Shown here: one piece after another, positions 1 to 50,826 of the stretch | Position numbering within the stretch: position 1 is the stretch's first letter | How the letters are laid out: each line of letters begins with the position of its first letter | Virus record (IMG/VR): IMGVR_UViG_3300049811_000206 | Span: 1-51,406 of that record | Direction: 5' to 3' (one strand) | Origin: a virus | DNA: 51,406 nt | The notes under the pieces: generated by a model | The model's input: only the letters and a program-made list of their open reading frames with translations | What the model was told of the DNA's origin: nothing | Databases searched by the model: none | Program-made: the position numbers and the translations under genes

Positions 1-117
1 AAACCGCTATTACCGTTCCAAGTCAAACCAAGACCTTGACAAATGGCGCATACACGACACTCACTTGGACCGTTCCAAGCCTTCCCGCCAACGTGGCTAC
101 TGGTTTGCAGGTGCGCT
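1..117. repeat. Terminal redundancy, left copy (identical to 51290..51406)
   Basis: Base-for-base comparison shows 1-117 equals 51290-51406. This implies a circularly closed 51,289-bp unit (assembly overlap) or a short direct terminal repeat. Confidence 0.95.
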
Positions 118-7398: not shown

Positions 7399-7766
7399 GA
7401 AGCTTGGCCCGTCAAATCTATCCCACATAAAACCCCCTTGCGATTGCGCTTTGCGACCCACGCCCCCAATTCAGCGACAATCAGACAAAAATTTTCAGGA
7501 TACACCACGGCAGCAAATCCCCCCGCCGTGGCTATTTGCCGAAGGTTATGCACTTGCAGCGTGTCAATTTTTGCTTTCGCGTCACGCTTTAATTCCAACG
7601 CCACAAACTGACCGCGAACGCACGCCAAAATGTCAGGCGTGCCACGCAAGCCCACTTGTTGCACCTTCACAGCCCACACCTGCGGCAGCGTGCGAAGCCA
7701 AGCTTGGACCTTTTGCTTGAAAACGGTTTCCGGCTTCACAGGCTTACCTTTTTCTTGTCTGCCCAT
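7395..7766 (-). CDS. VRR-NUC domain nuclease (PD-(D/E)xK)
   Basis: GTPDILACVRGQFVALELKR is the D...E-x-K motif of VRR-NUC proteins. GTG 7739 overlaps the polymerase stop (GTGA) and has AAAGG upstream, so it may be the real start. Confidence 0.8.
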   Translation of the reverse strand: MGRQEKGKPVKPETVFKQKVQAWLRTLPQVWAVKVQQVGLRGTPDILACVRGQFVALELKRDAKAKIDTLQVHNLRQIATAGGFAAVVYPENFCLIVAELGAWVAKRNRKGVLCGIDLTGQAS

Positions 7767-9565
7767 GACGTGGTGGACATGGCCGCGTCAACGTCCATGG
7801 GTAGGAATTTATGGGGGTAGGCTGCGCACATGATCCGTTTTAACTCGGGCAAAATGTCGGTTTCGCTTTCATGGATTTCCAGCAACAAACTGTCATGCAC
7901 TTGCAACAAAAGGCGCGATTTTTTGCGCGTGGAAACAAGGAAATCGTGCACGTTGTTCATGGCGAATTTGGCAATATCGGCCACCCCGCCTTGAATCAAC
8001 GTGTTGGGGGCCTTGTAGCAAAATTCGGGGTTATTGAAATAGTTCACTCGCCCCGCCCAATTCACGATATAGCCGCGATTTTCGGCCACGCTGGTGACGG
8101 CACGAATGAATTTGCTGACCTGTGGAAGGCGCTCAAAGTATTGGTCACGCAAAGCACGGGCTTTTCCCAGCGATATTTTCAAGGCGGTGGCGAGTTTCCC
8201 CGGGCCGCCCCCATACAACAGCATGAAATTGATTGTTTTGGCTTCCTGGCGTTCCACACCCATGGTTTTTCCCGTGGCCGTGTGAACGTCAAGCCCTTCA
8301 AGGATTTGATTGATTACAGACATTTCCCCCGCATAGTCCAGCATAAGCCTATATTCCGCCTGACTGTAATCTAATTCGGCCAGCTGAAACCCGGGGCGGG
8401 CAATGACGGCACGCTTGACGGGAAAAACTTCGTCCGCCGATTCTTCTTTCGGAACGTTTTGCATGTTTGGTTCCGACATGCTCATGCGTCCGGTTTCCGT
8501 CCCGCCTTGCCGAATGTTTGCATGAAGCACGCCGTTTTCGTCTGCATACTCCAAGAAATTGGCGTAATAGGTGAACGCCTTTTTGTGGGCCGCTCTAATT
8601 TGTTGAACCAATTTGGCCACAGGGGTGGAAAAGCCTTCTAGCACTTCGTCGGTGAAAGACGGATTTCCCTTTTCGGTCAGTGGGTATTTTTCCCCCATTT
8701 TCGTGAAGGCTTCTTTAAGCACCTTCGGCCCGTCCACAAATTCCAGCCCTGTGACTGCCTTGAATTCGTGCATGGCGTTGGCTTCCCGGCTTTCCTCATA
8801 AGCCTTGGCCCGTCTGCAATACTCAAGGTCAAGCTGTAATCCAACCTGTTCCATGGCAAAGCATGTTTTGATTAGCTTGCGCTCATTGGCGGCTAGGCCC
8901 GAGGGCCGGGGCACGTTGACCGGCACCATGGCGTCAAGTTTCTTCAATTCTTCCAGCTGTGAAATCCCCACCAGCCTGGTGATTTCCCCGTCTGTGCAAC
9001 CATAGGGGGCAATCACGTCCAAGGGCACCCGATCATAATGGGGCACCTTCTCTTTTTTCTTTTTGCCGGGGAAAAGCTTTGGGGTGAATAGCCCGTGCTC
9101 GGCAATGAAGTCTTCCACTGCCGTGCTTTTTTCCCGCCCAATTTGCTTCGAAAGGGCGTCAAGGCCATATTGAAACATGTCGTTTCGAACAATCCGCCCT
9201 TGGGTTTCGGTATCGTGGACGGTGCCAGCGATTGAAAGCCCTTCCCGGGCCAGCATGGCAAGGTCAAACTTGGCATTGGCCAAAAACCAATAGCTATCGG
9301 GGTTGCTGAAAATTTCTTGTAGCCGGGCCAACCACTCGCGCGGCAACCACCATTCTTCCGGCAGGTCATACCACTGGCCAGCCACGTATTCCTTGGGGTT
9401 GAAATTCAGATAGAAGCTCTCGGTTGCATCGGCAAGGATGACAGAAAAAAGCCTGTCACCCTGGTAGGGGCGCAGGCCAGTGGTTTCCGTGTCCGTGCCA
9501 TACATTCCCGCGTCTTTGAAGCGGGCAAGCACTTGGTCAAACTGATTTCTTTGGATTAGTGACAT
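7736..9565 (-). CDS. Family A DNA polymerase with 3'-5' exonuclease domain
   Basis: Exo motifs are DTETTGL, NAKFDL and YGCTDGE. Pol motif A is DYSQAEYRLM, motif B is RQEAKTINFMLLYG and motif C is LLLQVHDSLLLE. Confidence 0.95.
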   Translation of the reverse strand: MSLIQRNQFDQVLARFKDAGMYGTDTETTGLRPYQGDRLFSVILADATESFYLNFNPKEYVAGQWYDLPEEWWLPREWLARLQEIFSNPDSYWFLANAKFDLAMLAREGLSIAGTVHDTETQGRIVRNDMFQYGLDALSKQIGREKSTAVEDFIAEHGLFTPKLFPGKKKKEKVPHYDRVPLDVIAPYGCTDGEITRLVGISQLEELKKLDAMVPVNVPRPSGLAANERKLIKTCFAMEQVGLQLDLEYCRRAKAYEESREANAMHEFKAVTGLEFVDGPKVLKEAFTKMGEKYPLTEKGNPSFTDEVLEGFSTPVAKLVQQIRAAHKKAFTYYANFLEYADENGVLHANIRQGGTETGRMSMSEPNMQNVPKEESADEVFPVKRAVIARPGFQLAELDYSQAEYRLMLDYAGEMSVINQILEGLDVHTATGKTMGVERQEAKTINFMLLYGGGPGKLATALKISLGKARALRDQYFERLPQVSKFIRAVTSVAENRGYIVNWAGRVNYFNNPEFCYKAPNTLIQGGVADIAKFAMNNVHDFLVSTRKKSRLLLQVHDSLLLEIHESETDILPELKRIMCAAYPHKFLPMDVDAAMSTTSWADKKKVSL

Positions 9566-9722: not shown

Positions 9723-10449
9723 TTTTCAAAACCCCTACAGTGAAAGGCGCTGAAGCTGTTTCCTCCGCTACCTGCGAAGCCTTCACAGTTTTCAGCCAAA
9801 GTTTCAAAACACCGTCCCAATAGAACCCACGCGCTTTAGCTTCCCCCGTGCTTTTTCCGCCGTCAACCCAGGGTTTTTCAGTTTGGGCCACCAGCTGAAT
9901 GTTTTCTTCTTTCGACCGTGCAAGCACATGTTCAGCGTCATAATGGGATAGCACAGAAAACATAGTGAGAACATCGAACACCGCACGGTGCGCGAACGGA
10001 TTCAAAAACCCATGTTCAGCTGCAAGGTGGGTTAGTTTTCTGGTTTTCACGTGCGCCGGGAACGGAATATCAAGCTGGGTGTCAATCCAATGCAGGGCAG
10101 GGATTTCCACGCCCCAACGCTTGGCGTAATTTTCAAGCAACGGCTTGTCAAATCCTGTTCCATTGTGGGCAACAACAGCCTGCAAACCTTCGGCCTCAAG
10201 GTGTGCCACAAGGTCATTCAAGGCACATACCGGGGACACGCCCCAATCCTCTAAAACGGGATTGGTCAGGCCCGTCAGGAATTCAATATCAGGCGAAAGC
10301 GTTGGCATGTTTTCGTGCCACACCAGCGTGCTGAAAATGCGAAGCGGGGCCTTGGTTGCCGTGTCCCAAAGCACGCCCCCGATTTCCGTGATTTCCGCAG
10401 TGGTTACGTCAACGCTATTGGTTTCAAAGTCAATTCCGAACAAAAGCAT
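9688..10449 (-). CDS. DEDDh (DnaQ-like) 3'-5' exonuclease with a short C-terminal extension
   Basis: ExoI is GIDFETN, ExoII is AHNGTGFDKPLL and ExoIII is HRAVFDV. The C-terminal GEAKARGFYWDGVLKLWLKTV resembles the AK-x-x-G-A-x-WD-x-x-x-K-x-W module. Confidence 0.85.
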   Translation of the reverse strand: MLLFGIDFETNSVDVTTAEITEIGGVLWDTATKAPLRIFSTLVWHENMPTLSPDIEFLTGLTNPVLEDWGVSPVCALNDLVAHLEAEGLQAVVAHNGTGFDKPLLENYAKRWGVEIPALHWIDTQLDIPFPAHVKTRKLTHLAAEHGFLNPFAHRAVFDVLTMFSVLSHYDAEHVLARSKEENIQLVAQTEKPWVDGGKSTGEAKARGFYWDGVLKLWLKTVKASQVAEETASAPFTVGVLKNGRVEKSSGQA

Positions 10450-10575
10450 TTTGCACCCTTTCAGGAAAGAACAGGTGGCTTGCAGCTGCTACCCAACAAG
10501 CCACCTGCCTAGCAGTAACGGGTTTAGGTTGGTCGGGCCTCATGACCCTAGAACCATGCTGACCCGCTGGCGCTA

Positions 10576-11409
10576 TCAGAATTGCCGCGTTGCGGCAGTT
10601 TCGGGATCAATCGCCGGGCTATTGCCAATTCCACCGGCTTCCGCTTCAAGGTCGGTGTCCATGACGCGCACGGTGGCCGTGCTGATGATTTGATACCAGT
10701 CATGGGCTGCCTTGATTTCCTCGGGCGTGCTTTGCCGCGACATGGCCGCGTCAAACACGTAGAAGGTGCCCTTGTCGTTTTCCTGCTTTTTGCACGAAAG
10801 CGCAAAGACGCGGCTAGCCGTGGGTTGGTTGGCAAGTTTCAGCTTGGTGAAATAGGTCACCAGCTTTTTGCCTGCCGTGTAGCTTGTGCGGCGCATGCTG
10901 ACCAAGTAGGGGAAGGCTTCGCCCGAAGCGATTTGGCTGGGCAACAGGCAATAGAAATTCAACGCCCTGTCACGCCTGACTTTCAACCCGCCCATGACTT
11001 CTTCCATAGGCCAATTTTGGTTGGCCGCCGTCATGGGTTCTTGGCGCACGTATTCCATGCTTCCCGTGTTGTTCTTGTCTTCAAAAATAATCCACGTTTT
11101 AGTGGTTTTGAAAACAATGATTTCCACAGGGGTGTTTTTGTCCCCGATCACCTGACCATTCAGGTTGTCAAGCATGTCACCAATGCGGGCTTTTTCGTCT
11201 GTCACAGCCTGGGAAAGCCCTTGCATTAGCAAAATCTTGGGCAACAAAATATCGTCAGCGCTGATTTCTTCGGCACCCCACGCCGTATTCGGCACCGTGG
11301 GAAGCACATTAGCAGAAGCGGCCACAGGCAAATTTTCTTCCTTCACTTCCACCGCTGGGGCCTCGGGCTTGGGCATTTCCATCTTGATTTGAACACCTTG
11401 ATTTTCCAT
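10576..11409 (-). CDS. Hypothetical protein; possible ssDNA-binding or recombination-associated protein
   Basis: AAAGGAAA RBS. 277 aa. It lies between the exonuclease and recombination-like genes. The C-terminus is acidic and ends in Phe (DTDLEAEAGG...ETAATRQF). The function is a guess. Confidence 0.3.
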   Translation of the reverse strand: MENQGVQIKMEMPKPEAPAVEVKEENLPVAASANVLPTVPNTAWGAEEISADDILLPKILLMQGLSQAVTDEKARIGDMLDNLNGQVIGDKNTPVEIIVFKTTKTWIIFEDKNNTGSMEYVRQEPMTAANQNWPMEEVMGGLKVRRDRALNFYCLLPSQIASGEAFPYLVSMRRTSYTAGKKLVTYFTKLKLANQPTASRVFALSCKKQENDKGTFYVFDAAMSRQSTPEEIKAAHDWYQIISTATVRVMDTDLEAEAGGIGNSPAIDPETAATRQF

Positions 11410-11455
11410 TCACGTTTCCTTTCATTGCTTCACTATTCCAAGCGCACCATGCGCT

Positions 11456-12175
11456 TTAGGCCAAAATCACGCCCTTAACACCCTTGTCCGCCAAGTATTG
11501 GGCGATTCTTTGCACCGCCGTGCGCTGCCATTCCCCGCCGTCAGCTTCATGCAGCGATACCACGGGCAATTCACTTTCCCGCTGGTGTAGGCGCAAAATA
11601 AACGGGCATTCCACTTGTTGGATTTCAGGGAAGGCACGGCGCGGGGCCAGCACAACCGGGTTTTTGATTGCAACCTTGTCTTCCAGCACAGCCCCCACCT
11701 TCCGATTGACGGTTTGCGTAATTCCATCGTCAAGCGAAGTGGTGACCTTCTCGGCTCGGATTGTCCCCAGCGTTGCAAGGATTTTTTCCTTGTCGGTGGT
11801 GTTGGCAAACCGGGCCTGAAGAAACACAAGGAAGTCTTCAATGCTGACCTTTTCGCCAAAGGGGAAAGGCTTGGTGTCATATTGAGCGAAAACCGGACGC
11901 TGCCGCGTTCCTTCATTCCAAAAAATTTCCTCCAAGACATTCACCACGCTGGGGCTTTCCACGTGGATTGAAAAGCGTTCGGCACCTTCGGTTTCCACGC
12001 CGTCAATTTGTTCAGCCAAATAGGTCACAAGGGAATCAAGCGTGTGAAGTTTTAAACCTTGGGCCATGGGGGGCACAATCCGGTCAAGCTTTTGCGTTGC
12101 ATAGGTGCCGCCCAAGACTTCAACGCAGGGTTCCGGGCGCAGGGAAAGGATTCTGTCAATAGCTTCCCGAATCAT
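11456..12175 (-). CDS. Hypothetical protein
   Basis: 239-aa ORF. ATG 12175 overlaps the upstream stop (ATGA). Confidence 0.7.
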   Translation of the reverse strand: MIREAIDRILSLRPEPCVEVLGGTYATQKLDRIVPPMAQGLKLHTLDSLVTYLAEQIDGVETEGAERFSIHVESPSVVNVLEEIFWNEGTRQRPVFAQYDTKPFPFGEKVSIEDFLVFLQARFANTTDKEKILATLGTIRAEKVTTSLDDGITQTVNRKVGAVLEDKVAIKNPVVLAPRRAFPEIQQVECPFILRLHQRESELPVVSLHEADGGEWQRTAVQRIAQYLADKGVKGVILA

Positions 12176-12507
12176 ACTTCCACTTCCTTCATGGCAACCA
12201 CGTTTTCAGAATCGCCACGGCGCTGCACAAGGGTGGTTTCCCCGTCTTTGCCTTCGGTCATGTGGGCAGTGACAAGAAGCGGCTTCACAGGGGCAAGCTT
12301 TGATTCGCATTTGATTGTGGCGCTGCACGTTTCCCGGGCTTCGTCAGCTGCGAAAATAAAGGAAAGCGTGATTTTGCGCTTTGCATCGTGCTTTGTGTTC
12401 ACGTCCTGCATGTTTTTCAGCACGGCTTCCAATTCGCGTTGGAACAATTCCGAAGCGGCCCCGTTGCCAATACTGCCCAAGCTAACTTCCGTCCATTTCG
12501 TCTTCAT
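12172..12507 (-). CDS. Hypothetical protein
   Basis: ATG 12507 is preceded by GAAAGGAAGA. The ORF track start at 12579 has no RBS. Confidence 0.65.
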   Translation of the reverse strand: MKTKWTEVSLGSIGNGAASELFQRELEAVLKNMQDVNTKHDAKRKITLSFIFAADEARETCSATIKCESKLAPVKPLLVTAHMTEGKDGETTLVQRRGDSENVVAMKEVEV

Positions 12508-14688: not shown

Positions 14689-14867
14689 TTGTCCACCTTT
14701 TCCGTGTACTCTTTGCATGCTTCAGCCAATGCGCTGAATATTTCTTGCCAATCGTTAGTAATACAGCGCAACCATTTGAAAATCACGTCATGCACTCCGT
14801 TTTGAATCACGCATAGTGTGTGCTTTTCACAGCTGTAGCACGAACGTGTTTTGCATACGCTATTCAT
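14685..14867 (-). CDS. Small Cys-rich hypothetical protein
   Basis: ATG 14867 overlaps the helicase TGA (ATGA). The protein begins MNSVCKTRSCYSCEKHTLC. Confidence 0.55.
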   Translation of the reverse strand: MNSVCKTRSCYSCEKHTLCVIQNGVHDVIFKWLRCITNDWQEIFSALAEACKEYTEKVDK

Positions 14868-17191
14868 ATAATGTTCCCCCACTTCAAAATGCTTTCGGCC
14901 ACGTTTGCTTTGCTTGTTAAGGCTTGCAGCACTTGGGCGTCAATCGTCCCCGGTGTCACAAGGTCAAGACGGGTTACCTTTTCGTGAATTGAACTTCCGC
15001 CACGGTAATTGCGGGCCTCGGCTTGCAGGTCATTTTCAAGCGAAAAATTACGGCTGAAAAAAATGCTGTAGCTGGAAGCCGTCAGGTTGACACCAACGCC
15101 CCCACTGGCCTGATTGGCGATCATGACCCGGCATTTGGGATCATTCTGAAACATGTCAATATTGGCTTGGCGTTCCTTGCCCGTGACTTCCCCGTGCAAT
15201 TGGGTGTAACCCAGCCCCAGCTTTTCACACACCTGGCGAATAACAGCATAATTTGCATGGAAAACGGCCCACACAATCACCTTGTGGTTGGGGGCAATAT
15301 CTTCCAGCAAGTCAGCAAGGGCCGCGATTCGTGGGCAATCGTCAAAAACCACTTCGGTGCCGTCTTCCGCCTTGAGGAATCCGCTGACGATTTGCTGTAA
15401 GCGCAACCCCTTGGTGATTGCCAGCTGTGCGGTGCACACCTTTGATTTTAGGAACGCCACGAAATCTTTTTTCATTTGTTCATAGGCGCGGGCTTGGTCA
15501 GGTGCCATTTCCACTTCAACCGTGTCACGCACCAGCGGGGGCAAATCCAAGCACTCGGATTTCACCACGCGCATGGCTTTGCGATACATTAGCCTACCCA
15601 ATTCGTCACTTGCCCCGGCACGTATGCGCCAATCAGGGAAATAACGTTGCGCGGGCATACCAGCGTTTTTGTCGAAAAAATACTTGGCGCGGAAGGAAAA
15701 GAAATTGTGCCCGAAGGTTTCCCCCTTGTCCAAAATCTTGAATTGCTGGAAGGCGTCCATGGGGCTGTTCAAGATAGGCGTTCCCGACAAAATCCACCGA
15801 TACCGCGTCAGGCTGGCCAGCTGAAAGCATGTTTTTGACCGCTTTGACTGCGGGCTTTTCATGCGTTGGCTTTCGTCAACGGCCATGGCCTCGGGCTGCC
15901 ACTTCTCGAAGGCTTCCACCATGGGCTTCATGGTCAAGGTTTCAAAATTGGTAATGAACACGGCGTTGGGATCGGCGGCAATGACTTTGTTGAACAGGTC
16001 AAGCCGCTTTTTGCCGCTACCCTTGAGCACAAAAACCCGGTCACTTATCTTTGAATTTTTCTGGAATTCACGTGCCCAGTTTTCGCATACCACCACTGGG
16101 CAAATAATTAGAGTGCGCAAAATTCTGGAATGCGCCAAGCATTTCCAGCGAAGCAAATCAATTGCCACCCTTGTCTTTCCCGAATTATGCACCACTAGAC
16201 CATTTGCAACAAAATTGTGGTGCGGTGCCTTACAGCAAATGTCATAGGTCATTTCCACGCCAACACGCTTGATTTCTGTCACGGTACGCCACGAAATAAC
16301 ACCATGCTTAAAATTCGCATATCCTTTGCTGTGCCCGCTTATATGTTCTTTAGCAGTAAGCAGCTGCAAGTTTTCCAGCGCATTATTTCGAGGATTTTTG
16401 TCAATGTGATGTACGTGAAATTTTTTGGGATCAATGTATTTTAGTTTGTTTGGTTTCTTTGTTTCTGCCTGAAACTGCGCCAGTGTAAGCCCATTCAAAT
16501 GGGCTTCAAAAATAGCGCGGTGCTTTTCCAATCTTTTGCAGCGTCGCCCATTGTACGGATGCGGAAATATCCGTGCATACTTGTGATGAATTCCCACTTG
16601 AATATCGGAATAGCGCGGTTTTTCTTTTTTTGCCCCGCTTCCAGTTTTCATGTGCCGGTGTAGGTAATCAAACGCAAGTTTTGTTTCTCCCACACGCAAG
16701 TCACGCAGTGGCTTGAATCCATCTTGGGTTAAGAATAGGTGGTCCGCTGTAGCTCGCAAAGGATTTCCATGATTCGTTGTGGATACGCTGAAAACTTCCT
16801 TTTCCCCGCTTCGCACAACCGCTTCAATTTCATTCAGACAAACATGGTCACCATTAAATGACCTGACATAGGTTTTAATTCCCGTATCCCATGCGTCACG
16901 TGTTCCCATTTCTACGTTGTTAAAATTTCGATATAGCTGTTCCAGCGTAATTTCAAACGCCTTTCCTGCACGATTCACCCTAATCAATGCGTCATGGGTA
17001 AGACACCCGGCTTCAAACAGTAAGGCATATTCTGGCATTTGCTTTGCTACTTCAAATGCTCGCCTCTGATGTTCCCACGGGGGGACTAGGAAGAAATTGG
17101 CAGGGGTATCGGTCACAGGTTTCCTTTCGGCCTCGGGCTTCAGATAGGGGCCGCGTTGCACTTGGTTTCCAAATCGAAATGGGCCACTCAT
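14864..17191 (-). CDS. SNF2-family (DEAD/H-like) helicase interrupted by an intein
   Basis: The exteins read ...LLFEAG + SGKTRVAIDL (Walker A GSGKT after splicing), then AVDESQ (box II), ILSGTP and C-terminal SNF2 motifs (QASGGVGVNLT, QAEARNYR). Residues 63-336 are the intein. Confidence 0.9.
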   Translation of the reverse strand: MSGPFRFGNQVQRGPYLKPEAERKPVTDTPANFFLVPPWEHQRRAFEVAKQMPEYALLFEAGCLTHDALIRVNRAGKAFEITLEQLYRNFNNVEMGTRDAWDTGIKTYVRSFNGDHVCLNEIEAVVRSGEKEVFSVSTTNHGNPLRATADHLFLTQDGFKPLRDLRVGETKLAFDYLHRHMKTGSGAKKEKPRYSDIQVGIHHKYARIFPHPYNGRRCKRLEKHRAIFEAHLNGLTLAQFQAETKKPNKLKYIDPKKFHVHHIDKNPRNNALENLQLLTAKEHISGHSKGYANFKHGVISWRTVTEIKRVGVEMTYDICCKAPHHNFVANGLVVHNSGKTRVAIDLLRWKCLAHSRILRTLIICPVVVCENWAREFQKNSKISDRVFVLKGSGKKRLDLFNKVIAADPNAVFITNFETLTMKPMVEAFEKWQPEAMAVDESQRMKSPQSKRSKTCFQLASLTRYRWILSGTPILNSPMDAFQQFKILDKGETFGHNFFSFRAKYFFDKNAGMPAQRYFPDWRIRAGASDELGRLMYRKAMRVVKSECLDLPPLVRDTVEVEMAPDQARAYEQMKKDFVAFLKSKVCTAQLAITKGLRLQQIVSGFLKAEDGTEVVFDDCPRIAALADLLEDIAPNHKVIVWAVFHANYAVIRQVCEKLGLGYTQLHGEVTGKERQANIDMFQNDPKCRVMIANQASGGVGVNLTASSYSIFFSRNFSLENDLQAEARNYRGGSSIHEKVTRLDLVTPGTIDAQVLQALTSKANVAESILKWGNII
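16184..17005 (-). mobile_element. Intein (274 aa) with an HNH homing-endonuclease domain, inserted in the helicase P-loop
   Basis: Block A is CLTHDALIRV (Cys1 codon at 17003-17005) and block B is ATADHLFLT. The HNH motif is FHVHHIDKNPRNNALENLQLLTAKEH. Block G is HNFVANGLVVHN followed by +1 Ser (Asn codon at 16184-16186). Confidence 0.85.
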
Positions 17192-18881: not shown

Positions 18882-19075
18882 GCAACCACAACGCCTAGCA
18901 CAAATGCAAGCAATCCGCAAACCCAAACCCCGGAAAAAGAAAAACACCCGAGGTAATTCAGAGGTTACCAGCCGCCCCTTGACAGCCCCCCACGCATGCG
19001 TGGCATCGTGGCAAACACTAGCGCCACCTATAGGTGAAAAAAATTTGCACACGTTCGTGCGTGGGGATTGCTGAA

Positions 19076-21505
19076 ATGCTTCAAATCCTGGGGATTCGTG
19101 ACTACACGACAGCCGAAGGCGAAGTGAAAAAGCGCGATGCGTTTTTTCAAAACAATTGGCGTGCGCCAAGTGTTGCCGATTTGTTCAAAAACCTTGACGC
19201 CCACCTTGCCAAAATTCCCGAGGATGCACGGTGGAATTTATACTACACGGCAGCCAATTGCGGGGACGGCAAGCGCGAATTCAAGGAACAACACGTTTTC
19301 GCTTTCGACATTGACGGCATTGACGTGAACCGCGCCCGCGACTATGTGTCAATCATTTGCGCCACGCTTGGCGTGAAGCCCGAGGAAACGGGCACCGTGA
19401 TGACCGGCCACGGGCTGCAATTGCTGATTGGCCTGAAAAACCCAATCACTCGCGCCGCCTGGTTTCGTGAGACAAAGCCCCACTATGTTTTGGTGTTGCG
19501 CAAAATCACGGAAGCCTTGAAAGCCCACGGGCTAAAGTGTGACGCTGACGCTTCGGTGTATGACCACAGGCGTCTTTTGCGTCTGCCCGGAACAATCAAT
19601 GATAAGTCATATAAAGGCTTGCCGCGCACGCGGGCCGAATTGCTTCAGGCCAATATCGTCCCCGTTGAATTCGACATTGGGGCCTTGGCAGGGGCACCAG
19701 CGGAAACGCCGGAACACACGGTGCCCGCCGATTTCATGAAGCGTTATCCAAAGGTGGACACCCCTGCCGTGCTCGCAGGGTGCGAATTTCTGAAATGGAC
19801 CAAAGACAACGCGGCCAAGGTCAATGAGCCGCAATGGTATGCAGCCCTTTCGGTTTTGTCGCGTTGCGAAAATGGCCCCGTTCTTTGTCATGACTACTCG
19901 AAAACCCACCCTGGTTATACCGCCCAAGAAACGCAGCTGAAGATTGACCAAGCCCTAAACGCCAGCGGGCCACGCACGTGCAAGGGCATTGGGACCATGT
20001 GGGACGGGTGCAAGGATTGCCCGAATTTCGGCAAGGTCACCAGCCCAATCATGCTTCGCGGCGCGGACTATATCCGCACGGAAAGCACGGGTTTCCGCCA
20101 CGTGACCTTTGGCGAAGGGGGCAAGGTCACCATTGGCAAGCCTTGTTTTGAAGACTTGCTGAAGGCTTTTGAGCGCAAGCACCGATTCGTCACCATGGCC
20201 GCCAGCCGGATTGTTTACACGTGGACCGGGACGCATTACCAAGTCACCCACCGAAACGAAATCGAAGCGTTCGCACAAGAACAGGTCAGCCCGTCGCCTA
20301 CTATGTCCAATCGAAAAGAATTTGCCGACCTTGTGACGTGCTCCAATATCGTTTCGCCGGATTGGTTTGCCGAAAGCACTTGGCGCAAAATGAATTTCCT
20401 TAACGGTTGGCTTGACCTGACCACAATGACTTTCAACCCCCCAAGTGACCGGCTGGGGTTTCGCCATGTTTTGCCCTACAATTATGAACCCACGGCCACG
20501 TGCCCCCATTACCTTTCCCTTATGAACAACGTCACGGGCGGGGACAGTCAGCTACAGTCAATTTTGAACGAATATGCTGGGTATGCCCTTTCCAATGACA
20601 AGATTTGGCTTCAAAAGGCTTTGGTGCTTTTGGGCGAAGGCTCAAACGGCAAATCAACGTGGCTGAACATTCTGAAGGCGCTTGTGGGCGAGGGTAACTA
20701 TTCCAGCCTTGGCTTGAAAGATTTTGAAAGCGAATACTGCCGCCAAATGCTGGACGGCAAGCTTTTCAACGTGGCCGAAGAAATGCCCCGCCAGCGGCTT
20801 GAAACAGCCAATTTCAAAGCGATCAGCACAGGCGGAACCGTCCAAGCCCGCAAGCCTTACCAAGAACCATATAGCTTCACGAACCGGGCCAAAATGCTAT
20901 TTGCCTGCAACACCCTGCCCGAAACTCAAGACACCAGCGGGGGGTTTTTCCGCCGTTTCCTGATTGTGCCGTTCAACCAAGAATTCAGCGAAGCACGCGG
21001 CAACCTTGACCCGTTCATTGAAGACAAGGTGCTTGAGGAATTGCCCGGTGTGCTCAACACCGTGCTTTCGGCCTACCGTGCCTTGATTCTGAAAAAGCGT
21101 TTCACGGAATCGGAATTGACGAAAGAAGCCCTTTCCAGCTACCAAGACGCCCAAGACACGGTGCTTTCCTGGTGGAATGAATACGTGAGCGTGAACACCA
21201 ACGGCGGAATGGAAACCCAGGCCAGCCGAATCGGTGACATGTATGATTCCTATGTGCGAATCACCAAGGCCAACGGCCAAGCCCCGGTGAACAACAAATG
21301 GTTTGGCCGCCAGCTTAGTTCATTGCTTCCAAACTATCGGCGTCATTACTCCGAAATGTGGGACAAGCAAATGCGCATGAAAATCAGAATCCTGAAAGGC
21401 GTGACTTTCGTGGATGCGGCAGCCCTTGCCTCGGGTGCGCGTCCGGCTTTCAAGCTGGAAGAATGCACGCCCCTGCCCGAAATGTCCCTTGCCATTCCCA
21501 TGTAA
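19076..21505 (+). CDS. Bifunctional AEP primase-polymerase / D5-P4-family SF3 helicase
   Basis: AEP motifs are FAFDIDGID, GHGLQLLIGL and LLRLPGTIN. The helicase has Walker A LLGEGSNGKST, and NRAKMLFACNTLPETQDTSGGFFRRFLIVPF is typical of the D5/P4 primase C-terminal domain. An in-frame GTG at 19034 is possible. Confidence 0.9.
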   Translation: MLQILGIRDYTTAEGEVKKRDAFFQNNWRAPSVADLFKNLDAHLAKIPEDARWNLYYTAANCGDGKREFKEQHVFAFDIDGIDVNRARDYVSIICATLGVKPEETGTVMTGHGLQLLIGLKNPITRAAWFRETKPHYVLVLRKITEALKAHGLKCDADASVYDHRRLLRLPGTINDKSYKGLPRTRAELLQANIVPVEFDIGALAGAPAETPEHTVPADFMKRYPKVDTPAVLAGCEFLKWTKDNAAKVNEPQWYAALSVLSRCENGPVLCHDYSKTHPGYTAQETQLKIDQALNASGPRTCKGIGTMWDGCKDCPNFGKVTSPIMLRGADYIRTESTGFRHVTFGEGGKVTIGKPCFEDLLKAFERKHRFVTMAASRIVYTWTGTHYQVTHRNEIEAFAQEQVSPSPTMSNRKEFADLVTCSNIVSPDWFAESTWRKMNFLNGWLDLTTMTFNPPSDRLGFRHVLPYNYEPTATCPHYLSLMNNVTGGDSQLQSILNEYAGYALSNDKIWLQKALVLLGEGSNGKSTWLNILKALVGEGNYSSLGLKDFESEYCRQMLDGKLFNVAEEMPRQRLETANFKAISTGGTVQARKPYQEPYSFTNRAKMLFACNTLPETQDTSGGFFRRFLIVPFNQEFSEARGNLDPFIEDKVLEELPGVLNTVLSAYRALILKKRFTESELTKEALSSYQDAQDTVLSWWNEYVSVNTNGGMETQASRIGDMYDSYVRITKANGQAPVNNKWFGRQLSSLLPNYRRHYSEMWDKQMRMKIRILKGVTFVDAAALASGARPAFKLEECTPLPEMSLAIPM

Positions 21506-24851: not shown

Positions 24852-25027
24852 TCACGCCACGCTAAAGCATATTTGCCTAGAAGGTGTCAACCAAATTTTT
24901 GTAGTCAGTGTGGCGCTTGGATTCGAGGGGCAAAATATAGTCCGCCCCATGACTATAATATAGCCCGCTGGGACTATAGCCGGGGCGGGGTGTTTCAGGA
25001 ATGAACATGGTTGGAAAGTGGAACAGG

Positions 25028-25481
25028 GGGCCGGGGTTGGGTGCTACCCAATTTCAGCCCTGGCATTTAACTGCGCACCAGCGCCCCCAGCCCCTACCAA
25101 GGGAAACCAAAGCCTAACGTTTGTCGGGGCGGGAACACAATCCAATAATAGACAAAAAAAGAAGCTATTAATGGATAGTGGGCCGGGGTTCGAAGGATAC
25201 CAGCGGGGGGAAGTTTTGGGCTGGAATTTGGACGATTTTGGGGCCGGGGATCGGGGGAAAAACCAGCGCTGGGGGAAACACGGGGTTTTCTAAGTGCTTG
25301 ATTTGTAAGGAATGGCGTGTTTTGTGGCGTCGATTTTGGGTTTGAAAGGTAAGGGAAACCAGTGGGTTGAGCGAAAAAAGCTAACGTCGGTGTGCATTTT
25401 TTGTGCATGACTGGTATTAGTTAGCTGTTAAGGGGAATAAACGAACAAAATGGGCTTGGTAGCAAGGAAATTGGGCCGGGG
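25028..25481. repeat. Four dispersed copies of GGGCCGGGG in the non-coding hub
   Basis: Copies are at 25028-25036, 25180-25188, 25241-25249 and 25473-25481, all in the same orientation. Each is followed by (T/A)(T/C). Confidence 0.7.
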
Positions 25482-25513
25482 ACAAGGCCATTTTGTAACC
25501 CGTTGATTTTGTT

Positions 25514-25849
25514 CATTCCATCATTCCATGAACTTCCATCATTTTTTTGCTTCATGGAATGGAACTAACCAGCCGTTTTTTGGCTCTTTTTCGGGTTTTC
25601 CTTCCATCATTCCATGAAAGAGGGGGTATAGGTAACATTTTGAAACGCTGGTTTTTAGAGCGTGGTCCCACTGTATAAATATTGAACAACAACCACGATA
25701 AAATGCACCCTAAAACTACCCCTTATAGAGAATACATGGAATGTCGGAAGATGGCCCTTTTTGGAGGTTGTTTTGGTAATGATATTCGACACCTTCCAAC
25801 ATTCCATCATTTTGAGTTTTCATGGAAGGTTCTTGGAAGTTTCATGGAA
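25514..25849. repeat. Iteron-like array of TTCCAT(C/G)A in both orientations
   Basis: Exact plus-orientation copies start at 25516, 25524, 25534, 25602, 25610 and 25802. Exact inverted copies (TCATGGAA) start at 25552, 25820 and 25842. One-mismatch copies lie near 25557, 25734, 25794 and 25831. Confidence 0.8.
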
Positions 25850-25858
25850 GCACTTGCA

Positions 25859-25875
25859 TTTTTGTTGAACGTAAT
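25859..25875. promoter_or_regulatory. 17-bp palindromic element, copy 5 (TTTTTGTTGAACGTAAT)
   Basis: It lies 26 nt upstream of ATG 25902, the first gene of the plus-strand late block. TTGCAT sits immediately upstream. Confidence 0.55.
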
Positions 25876-25901
25876 GTTAGCTACTTTCGAGGGGGAAAAA
25901 T

Positions 25902-26219
25902 ATGAAACCGGAAACAATCGCCTTGCTGGCGGAATTCGAAAAATTCGTGTCCGCCGATCCGCGCCTTAAAGCGCTGTGGGCTGCCCTGCCCCAAGAAGCT
26001 GGGATAGCCCTGGGGAAAGCTGTGGAATACATGCCCCAGCTGAAACCGTCTTATTTCCATCAATGGTATTGCAAGCACGAATCCGACCGCTCGGGGCTTA
26101 CCCAGCGCCAAAGCTATCAGCTGTTTCAGCTGGGCTTGATGTTCCTTGACCAAGTGAGCCGGGGACGCTATTACGTGCCGCCGTTCGTGGCCGAAGGGGC
26201 TGCCAATGGGCAAGGATGA
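25902..26219 (+). CDS. Hypothetical protein
   Basis: GAGGGGGAAAAAT lies immediately upstream of ATG 25902. 105 aa. Confidence 0.65.
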   Translation: MKPETIALLAEFEKFVSADPRLKALWAALPQEAGIALGKAVEYMPQLKPSYFHQWYCKHESDRSGLTQRQSYQLFQLGLMFLDQVSRGRYYVPPFVAEGAANGQG

Positions 26220-27732: not shown

Positions 27733-29166
27733 TTGAACGGGGACGCAAAAGCACAAACGTCCCCCCCACCCCCCGCTGGGATTGTCCTGCGCCTTCCCCC
27801 CTTACATCCCCGTCAGGAAATTTTTGGGTTTTGGAATGAGGACAACCCCGAAGCGCAATGCTTGGTTGCCCCTTGTGGGACCAAGGCGGGGAAAAGTTTT
27901 GGTTCCAGCTGGTGGCTTGTCAAAGAAGCCATGGCAACGGCAAACCTGTATTGCGTTTGGTTGTCGCCCACATACCTGAAGGCAAAAATTGGTTACCGCT
28001 ATATGAAAAGCCTGTGCCATATCCCAGGCTACGTTTCATTTGTCGATAGCCGCATGGAAATCCATTTTGCCAATCGGTCATTCATTAAATTTCTGCATGG
28101 CCAAGACGCCGAAGTGACGGTGGAAGGGGAAGCGGTTGACCGCTTTGTTGTGGACGAAGCGGGGAAACAGACGGCACAGCTGTGGCATTCGCTGCTTACC
28201 ACAATCACCCAGACGCGCGGGCGAGGAATCATTACAGGAACCCCCCGTGGGTTCACTTGGTATTATGACCTGTTTCGTAAGGCAAAGGCGGGTGACCCGT
28301 TCTTTGTGTGGGCGCAATTCAGCACAGAGGATAGCCCTTTCATTGCCAAGGAAGCCATTGCCCAAGCCAAGCGCCTATTACCCAAGCCTCTGTATGACCA
28401 ATATTACCGGGCCATGTTCGTCAGCCTGTCCACGGTGTTCGGTGACCTTTCGGGAATTTGGAATGACCTACCCGTTGAAAATCAACGCCTTTGGTTTCAC
28501 CCGGACCCAGAAACCCGTTCCTTGGACACTTGCACGGGTGTAGATATAGCCAAGCAAAACGATTTCACGGTGTTTTCCACGGTCAACAGCAACGGGGAAA
28601 CCGTGGGCTTTTGCCGCTTCAAGGGCGGAAGCTACACGGAACAGGCACGAAAGCTTGCGAAATACTTGGAAGCCTTCAAGGAAGGTGACCGAAGCGTGCG
28701 ATATGACGCCACTGGCGTGGGTGTCGGCTTCGGGGACATGCTTGGTGAAATGGACCTGGACGCAAACGTGCGTGGGGTTACTTTCACCAACGCCAGCAAA
28801 TCCGAAATGGTTGTGAAGACAACCTTGGCTATTGAACAGGGCCGCTGGAAATGTCCGCGCCTTGAAGCTGTGGAACATGAGTTTTCAGCCCTCGAATTGC
28901 ACGTGACGCAATCCGGGCTTCATGCTTACCGCGCCCCCGAGGGTGACCACGATGACACGGTTATGTCATTCATGCTTTCAGTGTCCGGGGCGTTGGAATC
29001 CGCTGGTGCGGCGGACGCGGAAAGATTGCTAGAGGAAACGCTTGCGGGTGGGGGCCAGAAACGTGATACCCTTTCAAACTATGCTGCCCTTGCGTATGAC
29101 GATGACTTGACGCCACCCGAAGACGGGGACGCTGATTTTCTTGACGAAGATATGGGGGAATTATAA
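27733..29166 (+). CDS. terL: Terminase large subunit
   Basis: Walker A is CGTKAGKS and Walker B is RFVVDEAG. Nuclease-domain acidic motifs are TGVDIAKQNDFTVFS and GDHDDTVMSF. The TTG start at 27733 follows AGGGGGG. Confidence 0.9.
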   Translation: MNGDAKAQTSPPPPAGIVLRLPPLHPRQEIFGFWNEDNPEAQCLVAPCGTKAGKSFGSSWWLVKEAMATANLYCVWLSPTYLKAKIGYRYMKSLCHIPGYVSFVDSRMEIHFANRSFIKFLHGQDAEVTVEGEAVDRFVVDEAGKQTAQLWHSLLTTITQTRGRGIITGTPRGFTWYYDLFRKAKAGDPFFVWAQFSTEDSPFIAKEAIAQAKRLLPKPLYDQYYRAMFVSLSTVFGDLSGIWNDLPVENQRLWFHPDPETRSLDTCTGVDIAKQNDFTVFSTVNSNGETVGFCRFKGGSYTEQARKLAKYLEAFKEGDRSVRYDATGVGVGFGDMLGEMDLDANVRGVTFTNASKSEMVVKTTLAIEQGRWKCPRLEAVEHEFSALELHVTQSGLHAYRAPEGDHDDTVMSFMLSVSGALESAGAADAERLLEETLAGGGQKRDTLSNYAALAYDDDLTPPEDGDADFLDEDMGEL

Positions 29167-31428
29167 ATGGGCCTTTTCAACCGCACAAAGCCCCAGCACA
29201 CCGAACCCGAAGCCAAAGAAGTGGAACGCATGGACGATGCAACGGGGGCTTCTGACGTGTCCGTGCGCATTGAAGCGGCCATGAAAAAAAGCCTGACTTA
29301 CGCCAATTATGAAGCCTGGGACGTAGGCAATGAAAACGGCGGAATGTTCGGGCAGGAATTCGATATTAAAACCACGGCTGGCCGGATCAAGGCGCTATAC
29401 ACGCGCGAACCGTGGATATACACAACCGCGTCTTTGATTGCGCGAACGCTGGCCGGTGTGCCTATGAAGGTGTATCGCACGGGCACAGAGGATTGGGTGA
29501 AAGATCACCCGTTGCAAAAGCTGATTGTCTCGGGCAATCGGATGCAAGATGGAATGAGCCGTGTTTGGGCTGGAAACTTGGACCTTGTGCTTGGCGGCAA
29601 TTGCTTCCTTGTGCTTGACGCTGGTTTCCGCGAAGTGGTGCACACGCCTGTTGAGTATTGCAGCCTGAACATGCCCGAAACGCCGAACACTGCGCCAAGC
29701 CTTACGGTGTGGAATCCCCAGCAAGGGAAAGCCAAAGCCACGGTTGACGTGCAGCATTACATTCACCTTAAATTGCCAAACCCGTTCAATCCCTATTGGG
29801 GCCTGTCCCCGTTCGCGGCTGCCGCGCGGCCCATACTTCTTGACCGCTACAAGAATGAATTCGAAATGGCGTTTTATTTGCGCGGGTGCACGAATTCCGG
29901 CGTGATTGAAACCACCGAAGATTTGTCACGCACGCGCATGGAACGCTTAATGCGCACGTTTGAAAATGCGTTCACGGGAAAGGCTAATTGGTGGCGTACG
30001 CTGTTCCTGCCGAAGGGTGCAAAGTGGGTGAATTCTTCTCTGTCCATGTCGGACATGGAACACTTGGAAGGCTTGAAAGAAAATCGCCGAACCATTTTGG
30101 CGGTGCTTGGTATCCCGCCCGCTATGGTCGGTTTCGTGGAAGATGTGAACCGCTCCAATAGTGAGGAACAGACGAAGACGTTTTGGGAAAACACAATCAA
30201 ACCCACCGCCTGGTTTTGGTGCGCTGGGTGGAACAACAGCTATCTGTTCAAAAACGTGTATGGCGGCCAATACGAAGTGCGCCCCGATTTCAGCGACGTG
30301 GAAGCCTTACAAGGCAGCGTGATTACCAAGGGCGAACAATCCAAGGCAATGGCCCCCTATTTCTTCATTGACGAAATCCGCTCCAAGGTTTGGAAGGAAG
30401 CCCCGTTGCCCAATGGTGCCGGGCAAAAGATTGCGTCAACCTCGCCAGCGGCCAGCGGAAGCGGCAACCTTTCCCTTGCGGCCCCGCAAGATGCACCCCC
30501 TGGGGAAGCGCCGCCCACGTCAGAGATGCAGACGGTTTCGGACGAAGTGCAGGCGGAAGCCGTGCGCGTGCAGGAAGTGGCCACAACAAAGGCCACGGCA
30601 ATCAATAGCCAAAACAGACTTGAAGACAAGCTTGGCAATGACTTTGAAAAAGGGTTCAACGCCTACTTGGACAAGCTTCTTTCCCAAGCGGAAAAGGCTT
30701 TGAAGGAACACCGGGACGTTACCAAATACCTCAAGGCGTTTGTTAGTGAGCGCAAGGTGTTTTATTGGGATCAAGTGAAGTCCACACTTGAACGCGCCAT
30801 GGATCGGGGCTTTAGCATGTCAAACGGCCAAACCAAGCGCATGCAGTCAGGCGTTCGGATCAAGGCCAGCGTGTCCACGGCGTTCACGGAAGCCGACCGG
30901 CAGGCCATTGACGTGTTGCGTGAGAAGACACGGGACGAACAACGCAAGGTATTGGCCAAGCGCGGATTGTCCGTGTTCGAAGGCTTTGACGAAAAGCACA
31001 CCGAACAAATCATGCAGGTGATTGAAAATGGGTTGGCCTCGGGCCTCGCACAATCGGAAATCGCCAGCCGGTTGAAGTCAGACTTTGGCGAAGCCTACCC
31101 GAATCAAAGCCGCACGATTGTGCGCACCGAAACCTTGTCAGCTGTTAGCGTTGGAATGAAGTGGCACCAGGATGTTCTTGGCGAAGTATTCACCAAGGTC
31201 CAAAAGCAATGGTTGTCCCAGGATGACGAACACGTGCGCCCGGATCATAAGGAATTCGATTCCCTTGGCGTGGTGGCTGATGACTACCAGTATGCTGAAG
31301 GATTGCCCTACCCCCGCGCCTATGGTGCGGCCCCGGAACAGGCTATCAATTGCCGTTGCACCCTAATCAACGTCATTCCTGATGACAGCGCAAGCCGGGC
31401 TGATGTTATACTTGATACAGAAATTTAA
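29167..31428 (+). CDS. Portal protein fused to a Mu F-like (SPP1 gp7-type) minor head protein domain
   Basis: The N-terminal roughly 400 aa are portal-like (YTREPWIYTTASLIARTLAGVPMKVYR...). The C-terminus has RTIVRTETLSAV...WLSQDDEHVRPDHKEFDSLG...INCRCTL, the MuF-domain signature. Confidence 0.85.
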   Translation: MGLFNRTKPQHTEPEAKEVERMDDATGASDVSVRIEAAMKKSLTYANYEAWDVGNENGGMFGQEFDIKTTAGRIKALYTREPWIYTTASLIARTLAGVPMKVYRTGTEDWVKDHPLQKLIVSGNRMQDGMSRVWAGNLDLVLGGNCFLVLDAGFREVVHTPVEYCSLNMPETPNTAPSLTVWNPQQGKAKATVDVQHYIHLKLPNPFNPYWGLSPFAAAARPILLDRYKNEFEMAFYLRGCTNSGVIETTEDLSRTRMERLMRTFENAFTGKANWWRTLFLPKGAKWVNSSLSMSDMEHLEGLKENRRTILAVLGIPPAMVGFVEDVNRSNSEEQTKTFWENTIKPTAWFWCAGWNNSYLFKNVYGGQYEVRPDFSDVEALQGSVITKGEQSKAMAPYFFIDEIRSKVWKEAPLPNGAGQKIASTSPAASGSGNLSLAAPQDAPPGEAPPTSEMQTVSDEVQAEAVRVQEVATTKATAINSQNRLEDKLGNDFEKGFNAYLDKLLSQAEKALKEHRDVTKYLKAFVSERKVFYWDQVKSTLERAMDRGFSMSNGQTKRMQSGVRIKASVSTAFTEADRQAIDVLREKTRDEQRKVLAKRGLSVFEGFDEKHTEQIMQVIENGLASGLAQSEIASRLKSDFGEAYPNQSRTIVRTETLSAVSVGMKWHQDVLGEVFTKVQKQWLSQDDEHVRPDHKEFDSLGVVADDYQYAEGLPYPRAYGAAPEQAINCRCTLINVIPDDSASRADVILDTEI

Positions 31429-39173: not shown

Positions 39174-39183
39174 GGGGTTGCAC

Positions 39184-50270: not shown

Positions 50271-50286
50271 CATGAAAGGATTTGAA

Positions 50287-50811: not shown

Positions 50812-50826
50812 TTAAAGGAAACAAAA

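What the first reader, a model, noticed from the sequence alone, without database searches (positions are those of the whole stretch)
16184..17005. HNH-endonuclease intein splitting the Walker A P-loop of the SNF2-family helicase
The 14864..17191 (-) product reads ...YALLFEAG|CLTHDALIRV...APHHNFVANGLVVHN|SGKTRVAIDL. Removing residues 63-336 (274 aa) joins FEAG to SGKT and recreates a G-x-GKT P-loop. Downstream follow AVDESQ (box II) and SNF2 C-terminal motifs.

The insert has the canonical class-1 intein blocks:
- Cys1 (CLTHDALI);
- T-x-x-H (ATADHLFLT);
- terminal His-Asn followed by +1 Ser.

Between these blocks lies an HNH nuclease motif (FHVHHIDKNPRNNALENLQLLTAKEH), rather than the more usual LAGLIDADG module. 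By eye this stretch is clearly more AT-rich than the flanking helicase sequence, which suggests a recent invasion.
Basis: partly seen in the sequence, partly recalled or inferred. Interest (0 to 1): 0.75.

Follow-up and report, generated by a model that had tools for sequence, protein, structure and literature searches.

The report
HNH intein in phage helicase P-loop
A phage helicase gene is interrupted, exactly inside its ATP-binding loop, by a self-splicing protein element (intein) that carries its own HNH DNA-cutting domain; it looks real and intact, but it is one more member of a large, already known kind of mobile element.

Summary
ORF 14864..17191(-) encodes a 775-aa SNF2-family helicase. 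Residues 63-336 (window 16184..17005) are an in-frame 274-aa insert between Gly62 and Ser337 of the Walker A motif (FEAG|SGKT). The insert passes the curated cut-offs of Pfam Intein_splicing and HNH_3 and of TIGR intein_Nterm and intein_Cterm. It matches solved mini-inteins by sequence and by predicted fold. It keeps every class-1 splicing residue and every conserved HNH residue.

The closest helicase relative (72% identical) lacks the insert and reads FEAG-AGKT. Its DNA aligns to the window in two pieces that break at the intein borders. The same intein family sits at G|xGK[ST] in SNF2, RecD, UvrD, DnaB, RadA and terminase proteins: 165 of 184 members examined. About 1,400 clusters match the family profile.

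The AT-richness is real: GC3 is 0.41, against 0.60 for the extein and 0.61±0.05 for other genes. "Recent invasion" is only weakly supported. AT-richness is a family trait, and the nearest intein relative is only 51% identical.

Verdict: a genuine, probably active HNH homing intein, and a new member of a known kind. Splicing and homing were not tested.

The parts
14864..17191 (-). Precursor gene: SNF2-family helicase (775 aa) interrupted by an intein.
   Evidence: Pfam SNF2-rel_dom 5.6e-28, Helicase_C 1.3e-10, Intein_splicing and HNH_3. It is identical to the JGI-called protein P0001.
17006..17191 (-). N-extein (aa 1-62), ending ...YALLFEAG. This is the first half of Walker A, with Gly at position -1.
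   Evidence: The intein-free allele L001 aligns to window 17123..17006 and stops at the border.
16184..17005 (-). Class-1 intein, 274 aa (precursor aa 63-336): Cys1 ... His-Asn.
   Evidence: Intein_splicing scores 45.1 bits (cut-off 35.8), TIGR01445 30.7 (24.5) and TIGR01443 19.4 (15.6). Ssp DnaB mini-intein 1mi8 matches at 8.8e-10 with the single sequence and 5e-22 with the profile. The AF2 model has pLDDT 91 and Foldseek TM 0.77-0.87, normalised to the mini-intein targets, to the top-ranked mini-inteins.
16727..17005 (-). N-terminal splicing region (intein aa 1-93). Block A holds Cys1 (CLTHDALI). Block B holds T86-x-x-H89 (ATADH).
   Evidence: TIGR01445 matches intein aa 1-93 to model positions 1-83 of 83. 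C1, T86 and H89 are invariant in 35 family members.
16331..16432 (-). HNH (beta-beta-alpha-metal) endonuclease core, intein aa 192-225 (KFHVHHID...NLQLLTAKEHISGH). It lies within a larger inserted domain, roughly aa 110-235.
   Evidence: Pfam HNH_3 8.3e-9, 35.4 bits (cut-off 24.8), on aa 193-221. H199, H200, N212, L213, H221 and H225 are invariant. The model shows strand 196-200, strand 213-217 and helix 218-225.
16184..16297 (-). C-terminal splicing region (intein aa 237-274). Block F (TYDICC...HHNFVANG) holds Asp255. Block G (LVVHN) holds His273-Asn274.
   Evidence: Matches the Ssp DnaB intein at aa 234-273 and TIGR01443. D255, H273 and N274 are invariant.
14864..16183 (-). C-extein (aa 337-775 plus stop). 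It starts with +1 Ser in SGKT, the second half of Walker A, followed by motif II AVDESQ and Helicase_C.
   Evidence: L001 aligns to window 16180..14936, starting at the border.

Best explanation
The 822-nt segment 16184..17005(-) is a canonical class-1 intein with an embedded HNH homing endonuclease. It is inserted in frame between the Gly and the x of the G-x-G-K-T Walker A motif of a tailed phage's SNF2-family replication/recombination helicase.

Inferred mechanism, from the standard class-1 intein pathway:
1. The 775-aa precursor cannot form a P-loop.
2. Cys63 (intein Cys1) makes an N-S acyl shift, assisted by block-B Thr/His.
3. The +1 Ser337 attacks the thioester.
4. Asn336 cyclises, assisted by His335 and block-F Asp.
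5. An O-N shift joins Gly62 to Ser337. This gives a 501-aa helicase with an intact FEAGSGKT P-loop and a free 274-aa intein.

The free intein (or the precursor) would use its HNH domain to cut intein-less alleles at or near the P-loop-coding DNA during co-infection. Recombinational repair would then copy the intein in (homing).

Shown here: domain identity, exact boundaries, conservation of all catalytic residues, the existence of an empty-site allele, and the family's sporadic, multi-host distribution at one P-loop position. Inferred: splicing activity, nuclease activity, target site and time of acquisition.
For: - Boundaries and junction.
- Curated profile hits: Intein_splicing, HNH_3, TIGR01445 and TIGR01443, all above cut-off. 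TIGR01445 starts at intein residue 1. TIGR01443 ends at the +1 residue when the full precursor is scanned.
- Sequence match to solved inteins: 8.8e-10 with the single sequence, 5e-22 with the family profile.
- Predicted fold: pLDDT 91.2. All 50 matches listed are Hint-fold domains; 48 are inteins, the best of them Ssp/Npu DnaB and Mtu RecA mini-inteins with TM up to 0.87.
- All splicing residues (C1, T86, H89, D255, H273, N274) and all HNH residues (H199, H200, N212, H221, H225) are invariant across 35 homologous inteins, the window copy included.
- Intein-free orthologues: P0007 is 72% identical in the extein, P0014 63% and P0016 62%. More than 1,700 phage SNF2 helicases align in one piece across the junction.
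- The DNA of empty-site allele L001 aligns to the window in two HSPs that end at 17006 and begin at 16180. The intein spans 16184-17005.
- After in-silico splicing the SNF2-rel_dom score rises from 98.3 to 102.7 bits.
- Mobility signature: the same intein family sits at the same P-loop position in SNF2, RecD, UvrD, DnaB, Rad51/RadA, TerL and other NTPases. Of 184 members, 165 are at G|xGK[ST]. HNH-less mini versions occupy the same site.
- GC3 is 0.405 in the intein and 0.601 in the extein.
Against: - No experiment: splicing, cleavage and homing are all inferred.
- HNH_3 covers only the 29-residue core, and no solved HNH structure was matched directly.
- The family NJ tree is star-like. The nearest intein is 51% identical, so no donor and no recent transfer event can be named.
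- Gain in this lineage cannot be told apart from loss in the closest relatives.
Confidence: 0.9

Rival explanations
1. The intein still splices, but its HNH domain is no longer an active homing nuclease. The element would then be a fixed, vertically inherited passenger late in the homing cycle.
For: Intein and extein have diverged to a similar degree among intein-bearing orthologues: 34-51% against 40-54% identity. SNF2-orthologue inteins mostly cluster together in the tree, which fits long residence. HNH-less mini-inteins at the same site show that the nuclease does decay in this lineage.
Against: All six HNH core residues are invariant, and the window copy keeps them. The full 274-aa length is retained. 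The closest extein relatives lack the intein. The family occurs in many unrelated P-loop genes, which requires active or recently active mobility.
Confidence: 0.25
2. The intein acts as a conditional switch. P-loop disruption keeps the helicase off until splicing is triggered, for example by redox state through Cys1 and the conserved block-F Cys258, or by DNA. On this reading it is retained because it benefits the phage, not only because it is selfish.
For: The P-loop position guarantees an inactive precursor. Conditional splicing is documented for other P-loop inteins: Msm DnaBi1 and Pho RadA, as described in PMC6195587. Cys258 is at least 90% conserved in the family.
Against: Nothing in the sequence tests this. 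The sporadic distribution, with the closest relatives intein-free, and the retained HNH domain argue for selfish persistence.
Confidence: 0.1
3. The insert is a non-splicing insertion domain, or a degenerate intein or bacterial intein-like (BIL) domain. Either the helicase tolerates it or it has made the helicase a pseudogene.
For: None specific. Activity is untested.
Against: The insert splits Walker A, which an ATPase cannot tolerate. All splicing residues and the +1 nucleophile are intact. The extein is under evident conservation, 72% identical to the intein-free orthologue with all motifs present. Intein-free orthologues exclude a conserved structural insertion.
Confidence: 0.03

Closest known systems
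P-loop (Walker A) inteins of ATPases: Pho RadA, Msm DnaBi1 (DnaB site b), MCM site a, RFC-S site a, mycobacteriophage TerL1-a/b (PMC4760082, PMC5050341, PMC6195587)
   Same: The intein is inserted in the ATP-binding loop of a nucleic-acid-handling P-loop NTPase, so the precursor is necessarily inactive. A P-loop residue serves as the +1 nucleophile.
   Different: The 'classic' site described is between the invariant Lys and the Ser/Thr (GK|T). Here, and in 165 of 184 relatives, the site is two residues upstream, G|xGK[ST], and the variable x position becomes Ser/Cys/Thr. Msm DnaBi1 is a class-3 mini-intein; this one is class 1 with a nuclease.
SNF2/HepA helicase inteins: 15 in bacteria in Novikova 2016, 2 mycobacteriophage 'HEL related to HepA', and the Deinococcus radiodurans Snf2 intein
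   Same: Same host protein superfamily. Phage examples are already recorded.
   Different: The D. radiodurans Snf2 intein is class 3 (title of Brace et al. 2010, cited in PMC7765530). I could not check the insertion sites of those inteins, because the paper is not held.
In-frame HNH inteins (Dalgaard et al. 1997; actinobacteriophage survey, bioRxiv 10.1101/2025.01.02.630785)
   Same: A Hint splicing domain with an in-frame HNH nuclease in place of LAGLIDADG, found mainly in phages.
   Different: That survey calls the non-canonical architectures rare: 63 of 784 inteins carry one of four non-canonical nuclease types, of which in-frame HNH is one. Here the profile finds about 1,376 50%-identity clusters at E<=1e-30 in metagenomes.
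Ssp DnaB / Npu DnaB mini-inteins (PDB 1mi8, 4o1r)
   Same: These are the best sequence and fold matches for the splicing domain. Blocks B, F and G align residue by residue.
   Different: They are engineered or natural mini-inteins in DnaB, at a different insertion site and without a nuclease domain.

Membership tests
Intein (class 1) | In-frame insertion in a conserved host protein; homologues without it exist and align across the junction. | tested here: met
   P0007, P0014, P0016 and others lack it. Empty-site DNA allele L001 breaks at the borders. 1,724 phage records cover at least 80% of the spliced query in one place, and the best ones align across the junction in a single piece.
Intein (class 1) | Hint-fold splicing domain with blocks A, B, F and G. 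| tested here: met
   PF14890 scores 45.1 bits against a cut-off of 35.8; TIGR01445 and TIGR01443 are above cut-off. PDB intein hits at 5e-22. AF2 model plus Foldseek gives TM 0.77-0.87 to the top-ranked mini-inteins.
Intein (class 1) | N-terminal nucleophile (Cys/Ser at position 1). | tested here: met
   Cys63 of the precursor. Position 1 is Cys in all 178 family members whose N-terminus was matched.
Intein (class 1) | Block B TxxH. | tested here: met
   T86-A-D-H89; both residues are invariant in 35 sequences.
Intein (class 1) | Block F Asp (not the class-3 Cys at F:4) and block G penultimate His plus terminal Asn. | tested here: met
   D255, H273 and N274 are invariant. 182 of 184 members end in HN.
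Intein (class 1) | +1 Ser/Thr/Cys in the C-extein. | tested here: met
   Ser337. Across the family the +1 residue is S 132, C 47, T 5.
Intein (class 1) | The protein actually splices. | not testable with these tools
   Needs expression followed by western blot or mass spectrometry.
HNH homing endonuclease (Pfam HNH_3 type) | HNH/beta-beta-alpha-metal core motif with conserved His, Asn and His. | tested here: met
   PF13392 scores 35.4 bits against a cut-off of 24.8. H199, H200, N212, H221 and H225 are invariant. The model shows a beta-beta-alpha element at 196-225.
HNH homing endonuclease (Pfam HNH_3 type) | Site-specific cleavage of the intein-less allele and homing. | not testable with these tools
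   Only indirect evidence: sporadic distribution, the same site in unrelated genes, and mini-intein derivatives.
SNF2-family helicase (host protein) | SNF2 N-terminal ATPase lobe with motifs I and II, plus Helicase_C. | tested here: met
   PF00176 2.5e-29 and PF00271 6.8e-11 on the spliced protein. GSGKT and DESQ are present.
Class 3 intein (as in the Dra Snf2 and Msm DnaBi1 inteins) | No position-1 nucleophile, and a Trp-Cys-Thr triad with a block-F Cys nucleophile. | tested here: not met
   Cys1 is present and block F position 4 is Asp255.

The most novel reading that the evidence does not exclude
The window's intein belongs to a very large, essentially undescribed clade of HNH inteins: about 1,400 50%-identity clusters. 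Its nuclease appears to target DNA encoding the generic G-x-G-K-[ST] motif itself. That would let one element jump ectopically between unrelated P-loop NTPase genes (SNF2, RecD, UvrD, DnaB, RadA, TerL, SMC, AAA_5), always at G|xGK[ST]. This position is two residues upstream of the 'classic' GK|T P-loop site. If the nuclease really reads the P-loop-coding sequence, the clade would be a natural example of motif-directed rather than gene-directed homing.
Probability: 0.3. Interest if true: 0.55.

Novelty: new member of a known kind. Interest (0 to 1): 0.3.

Why it matters
For this genome it corrects the annotation. The phage helicase is a 501-aa protein made by protein splicing, and the contig carries a selfish homing element. 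More broadly, the copy is a well-preserved representative of an abundant HNH-intein clade with a fixed G|xGK[ST] insertion point across many ATPase families. That clade is useful for studying ectopic intein transfer between genes. It could also be a source of new Cys1/Ser+1 inteins and HNH nucleases for protein engineering. It does not change current understanding of inteins.

Tried and rejected
- Near-identical DNA in INPHARED phages: none. tblastn of the intein against phages: none. No cultured relative can therefore be named.
- The word-indexed protein search with the intein alone returned only 3 hits. The exhaustive profile search was needed.
- Other inteins in the phage's large proteins (PolA, D5-like primase, TerL, portal, tape measure): no Intein_splicing hits.
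- A co-conversion tract or elevated identity next to the site: 69 of 90 nt are identical around the empty site, against 70.6% gene-wide. This is too weak to interpret.
- Donor identification from the NJ tree: the tree is star-like with long branches and gives no donor.
- tRNA and Rfam scans of the window: nothing.
- The paper on the D. radiodurans Snf2 intein is not held.
- Rejected explanations: a conserved non-splicing insertion, a BIL domain, and a class-3 intein (see the rival explanations and membership tests).

Full report
**Observation**

The ORF 14864..17191(-) is real and encodes 775 aa. Translating it and locating the quoted strings puts the insert at precursor residues 63-336, which is window 16184..17005, 274 aa. 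The insert begins CLTHDALI and ends LVVHN, and SGKT follows. Deleting it yields a 501-aa protein reading ...YALLFEAG-SGKTRVAIDL.... A stop-free frame of 274 codons with this base composition has a chance probability of about 2e-8.

**What the insert is**

Pfam finds four domains on the precursor:
- SNF2-rel_dom, 5.6e-28
- Helicase_C, 1.3e-10
- Intein_splicing PF14890, 45.1 bits on the insert alone (gathering cut-off 35.8)
- HNH_3 PF13392, 35.4 bits (cut-off 24.8)

NCBIfam adds two hits above cut-off. TIGR01445 intein_Nterm matches insert residues 1-93 to model positions 1-83 of 83, so the model starts exactly at Cys1. TIGR01443 intein_Cterm ends on the +1 residue when the full precursor is scanned.

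Against PDB sequences the insert hits the Ssp DnaB mini-intein 1mi8 at 8.8e-10, through block B (ATADHLFLTQDGF) and blocks F/G (YDICCKAPHHNFVANGLVVH). A profile of 35 homologous inteins raises this to 5e-22 and brings in Mtu RecA, DnaX, NrdJ-1, DnaE, RadA, PolII and GyrA inteins.

An AlphaFold2 model built on that alignment has mean pLDDT 91.2. All 50 Foldseek matches listed in the PDB are Hint-fold domains, 48 of them inteins. TM-scores normalised to the target reach 0.87 for the best mini-inteins. The model shows a strand-strand-helix element at residues 196-225, as expected for a beta-beta-alpha-metal HNH core.

**Catalytic residues**

In the 35-sequence intein alignment the invariant columns are almost entirely the residues that define a class-1 intein and an HNH nuclease:
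- Cys1
- Thr86 and His89 (block B TxxH)
- Asp255 (block F)
- His273 and Asn274 (block G)
- His199, His200, Asn212, Leu213, His221 and His225 (HNH)

The window copy keeps all of them. Block F position 4 is Asp and a position-1 Cys is present, so this is class 1, not class 3.

**It is an insertion, not a conserved domain**

A search of 5.8 billion proteins found two groups of orthologues. One group, 744-779 aa, carries the insert. The other, about 440-540 aa, lacks it.

The closest extein relatives all lack it: P0007 (72% identity), P0014 (63%) and P0016 (62%). They read G[A/T]GKT at the site. Intein-bearing orthologues are only 40-54% identical in the extein and 34-51% in the intein.

The in-silico spliced protein aligns without a gap through the junction to P0007: FEAGSGKT against FEAGAGKT. 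It also covers at least 80% of its length in one place on 1,724 phage genome records. After splicing the SNF2-rel_dom score rises from 98.3 to 102.7 bits.

At the DNA level, the contig that encodes P0007 (L001) aligns to the window in two HSPs. One ends at window 17006 and the other starts at 16180. The break is therefore at the intein borders, to within a codon. This is an empty-site allele.

**Family and mobility**

All 48 intein-bearing hits of the first search share the same junction: -1 Gly (Ala in one), Cys1 ... His-Asn, then +1 Ser/Cys/Thr followed by GK[ST]. This holds although the host proteins are SNF2, RecD-like, DnaB, UvrD, RadD-like and other SF2 helicases and a large terminase.

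An exhaustive profile search of 1.84 billion cluster representatives gave 1,376 proteins at E<=1e-30. Among 184 full-length members, 165 sit at G|xGK[ST] and 12 more at |xGxGK[ST]. Position 1 is Cys in all 178 whose N-terminus was matched. 182 end in His-Asn.

Pfam on a random 66 of them shows the following hosts: ResIII/Helicase_C, SNF2, DEAD, UvrD, RecD, Rad51/RadA, DnaB, AAA_5, SMC and terminase.

Mini-intein derivatives of 152-203 aa, without HNH, occupy the same site in several of the SNF2 helicases found. Together these features match the signature of a homing element going through gain, decay and loss:
- sporadic distribution
- one insertion point in unrelated genes
- nuclease-less derivatives

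In an NJ tree the window's intein groups loosely with those of the SNF2 orthologues, on a long branch.

**Composition**

The intein has GC 43.6%, the exteins 51-53% and the window 53.1%. Only 0.3% of 822-nt windows reach a GC content as low.

The deficit lies at third codon positions. GC3 is 0.405 in the intein, 0.601 in the extein and 0.606+-0.045 in 19 other ORFs. GC1 is equal in intein and extein. So the difference is one of codon usage, not amino-acid content.

The same holds for the 51%-identical intein of the related phage L002 (GC3 0.40 against 0.55). Across all six members for which I fetched DNA, intein GC3 is at or below extein GC3. Copies in AT-rich hosts have GC3 of 0.21-0.30.

AT-richness is therefore a trait of the family, and the window copy looks partly ameliorated. 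"Foreign origin" is supported. "Recent invasion" is not demonstrated.

**Context**

The window is a complete tailed-phage genome. It has an exact 117-nt terminal direct repeat, 1-117 = 51290-51406. Its genes include:
- family-A DNA polymerase (7736-9565, -)
- an exonuclease
- a D5-like primase/helicase (19034-21505, +)
- TerL (27733-29166)
- portal-MuF fusion (29167-31428)
- prohead protease / major head protein region (31446-32612)
- adaptor proteins
- a 1,278-aa tape measure (39178-43014)

The SNF2 gene lies in the replication module, as it does in the related intein-bearing phage L002. No other intein was detected in the large proteins. There are no tRNAs and no Rfam matches.

**Mechanism (inferred)**

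The precursor cannot bind ATP, because Walker A is split between Gly62 and Ser337. The standard class-1 pathway would proceed in four steps:
1. Cys63 makes an N-S acyl shift.
2. Ser337 performs transesterification.
3. Asn336 cyclises.
4. An O-N shift restores FEAGSGKT.

The released HNH intein would cleave intein-less alleles in co-infecting phages, and repair would copy it in. None of these steps was tested experimentally.

**Comparison with what is known**

- Inteins in P-loops are called "classic", with about 70% of inteins in ATP-binding proteins (PMC5050341; PMC4760082).
- SNF2/HepA helicases are among the top 15 bacterial intein hosts. Two mycobacteriophage HepA-like helicase inteins are recorded.
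- In-frame HNH inteins have been known since Dalgaard et al. 1997. A 2025 actinobacteriophage survey counts them among its rare non-canonical types.
- The differences here are the exact position, G|xGK[ST] rather than GK|[ST], and the size of the HNH clade. Neither is conceptually new.

**Verdict**

This is a correct and well-read finding of an ordinary kind: a new member of a known class of mobile element. Interest is low to moderate.

Noticed in passing
window 1-117 and 51290-51406: An exact 117-nt direct repeat at the two ends of the contig. The window is a complete (circularly closed or terminally redundant) phage genome of 51,289 unique nt.
   Followed up: partly
window ~25000-26200: A second strongly AT-rich stretch (GC about 0.44) between the replication and packaging modules. 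It has only short, unconvincing ORFs and no Pfam or Rfam match. It could be a regulatory or origin region, or another foreign insert.
   Followed up: partly
window ~40850-42600 and ~49750-51400: Two more low-GC stretches (0.43-0.46). The first lies inside the tape-measure gene 39178-43014. The second covers the end of the 896-aa Laminin_G_3 tail-fibre-like gene and the 3' end of the genome.
   Followed up: no
P0017, P0019, P0070, P0107, P0122 (proteins): Mini-intein versions of the same intein (152-203 aa, HNH lost) sit at the identical G|SGKT site. Four of the five hosts are SNF2 helicases. This is the decay stage of the homing cycle.
   Followed up: partly
P0124 (2,788 aa): One metagenomic protein carries about five separate intein copies related to this family, at least three with an HNH-containing C-terminal half. 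Their C-terminal junctions do not fall at P-loops: HN|SGTH, HN|SGMT, HN|SYGF, HN|SHAV.
   Followed up: partly
Family alignment A1, intein residue 258 (window 16232-16234, -): A non-catalytic Cys in block F (YDIC-C258) is at least 90% conserved across the family. It is a candidate partner for a Cys1 disulfide (redox trap), by analogy with other inteins. Distances in the model could not be read.
   Followed up: no
L002 (related phage, 51.8-kb contig), gene 10001-12253: A phage with a similar replication-module layout (D5-like primase ... SNF2 ... PolA) carries a 276-aa intein at the same site with +1 Cys instead of Ser. Neighbouring genes hit Pam3_Gp34 and DUF7307.
   Followed up: partly
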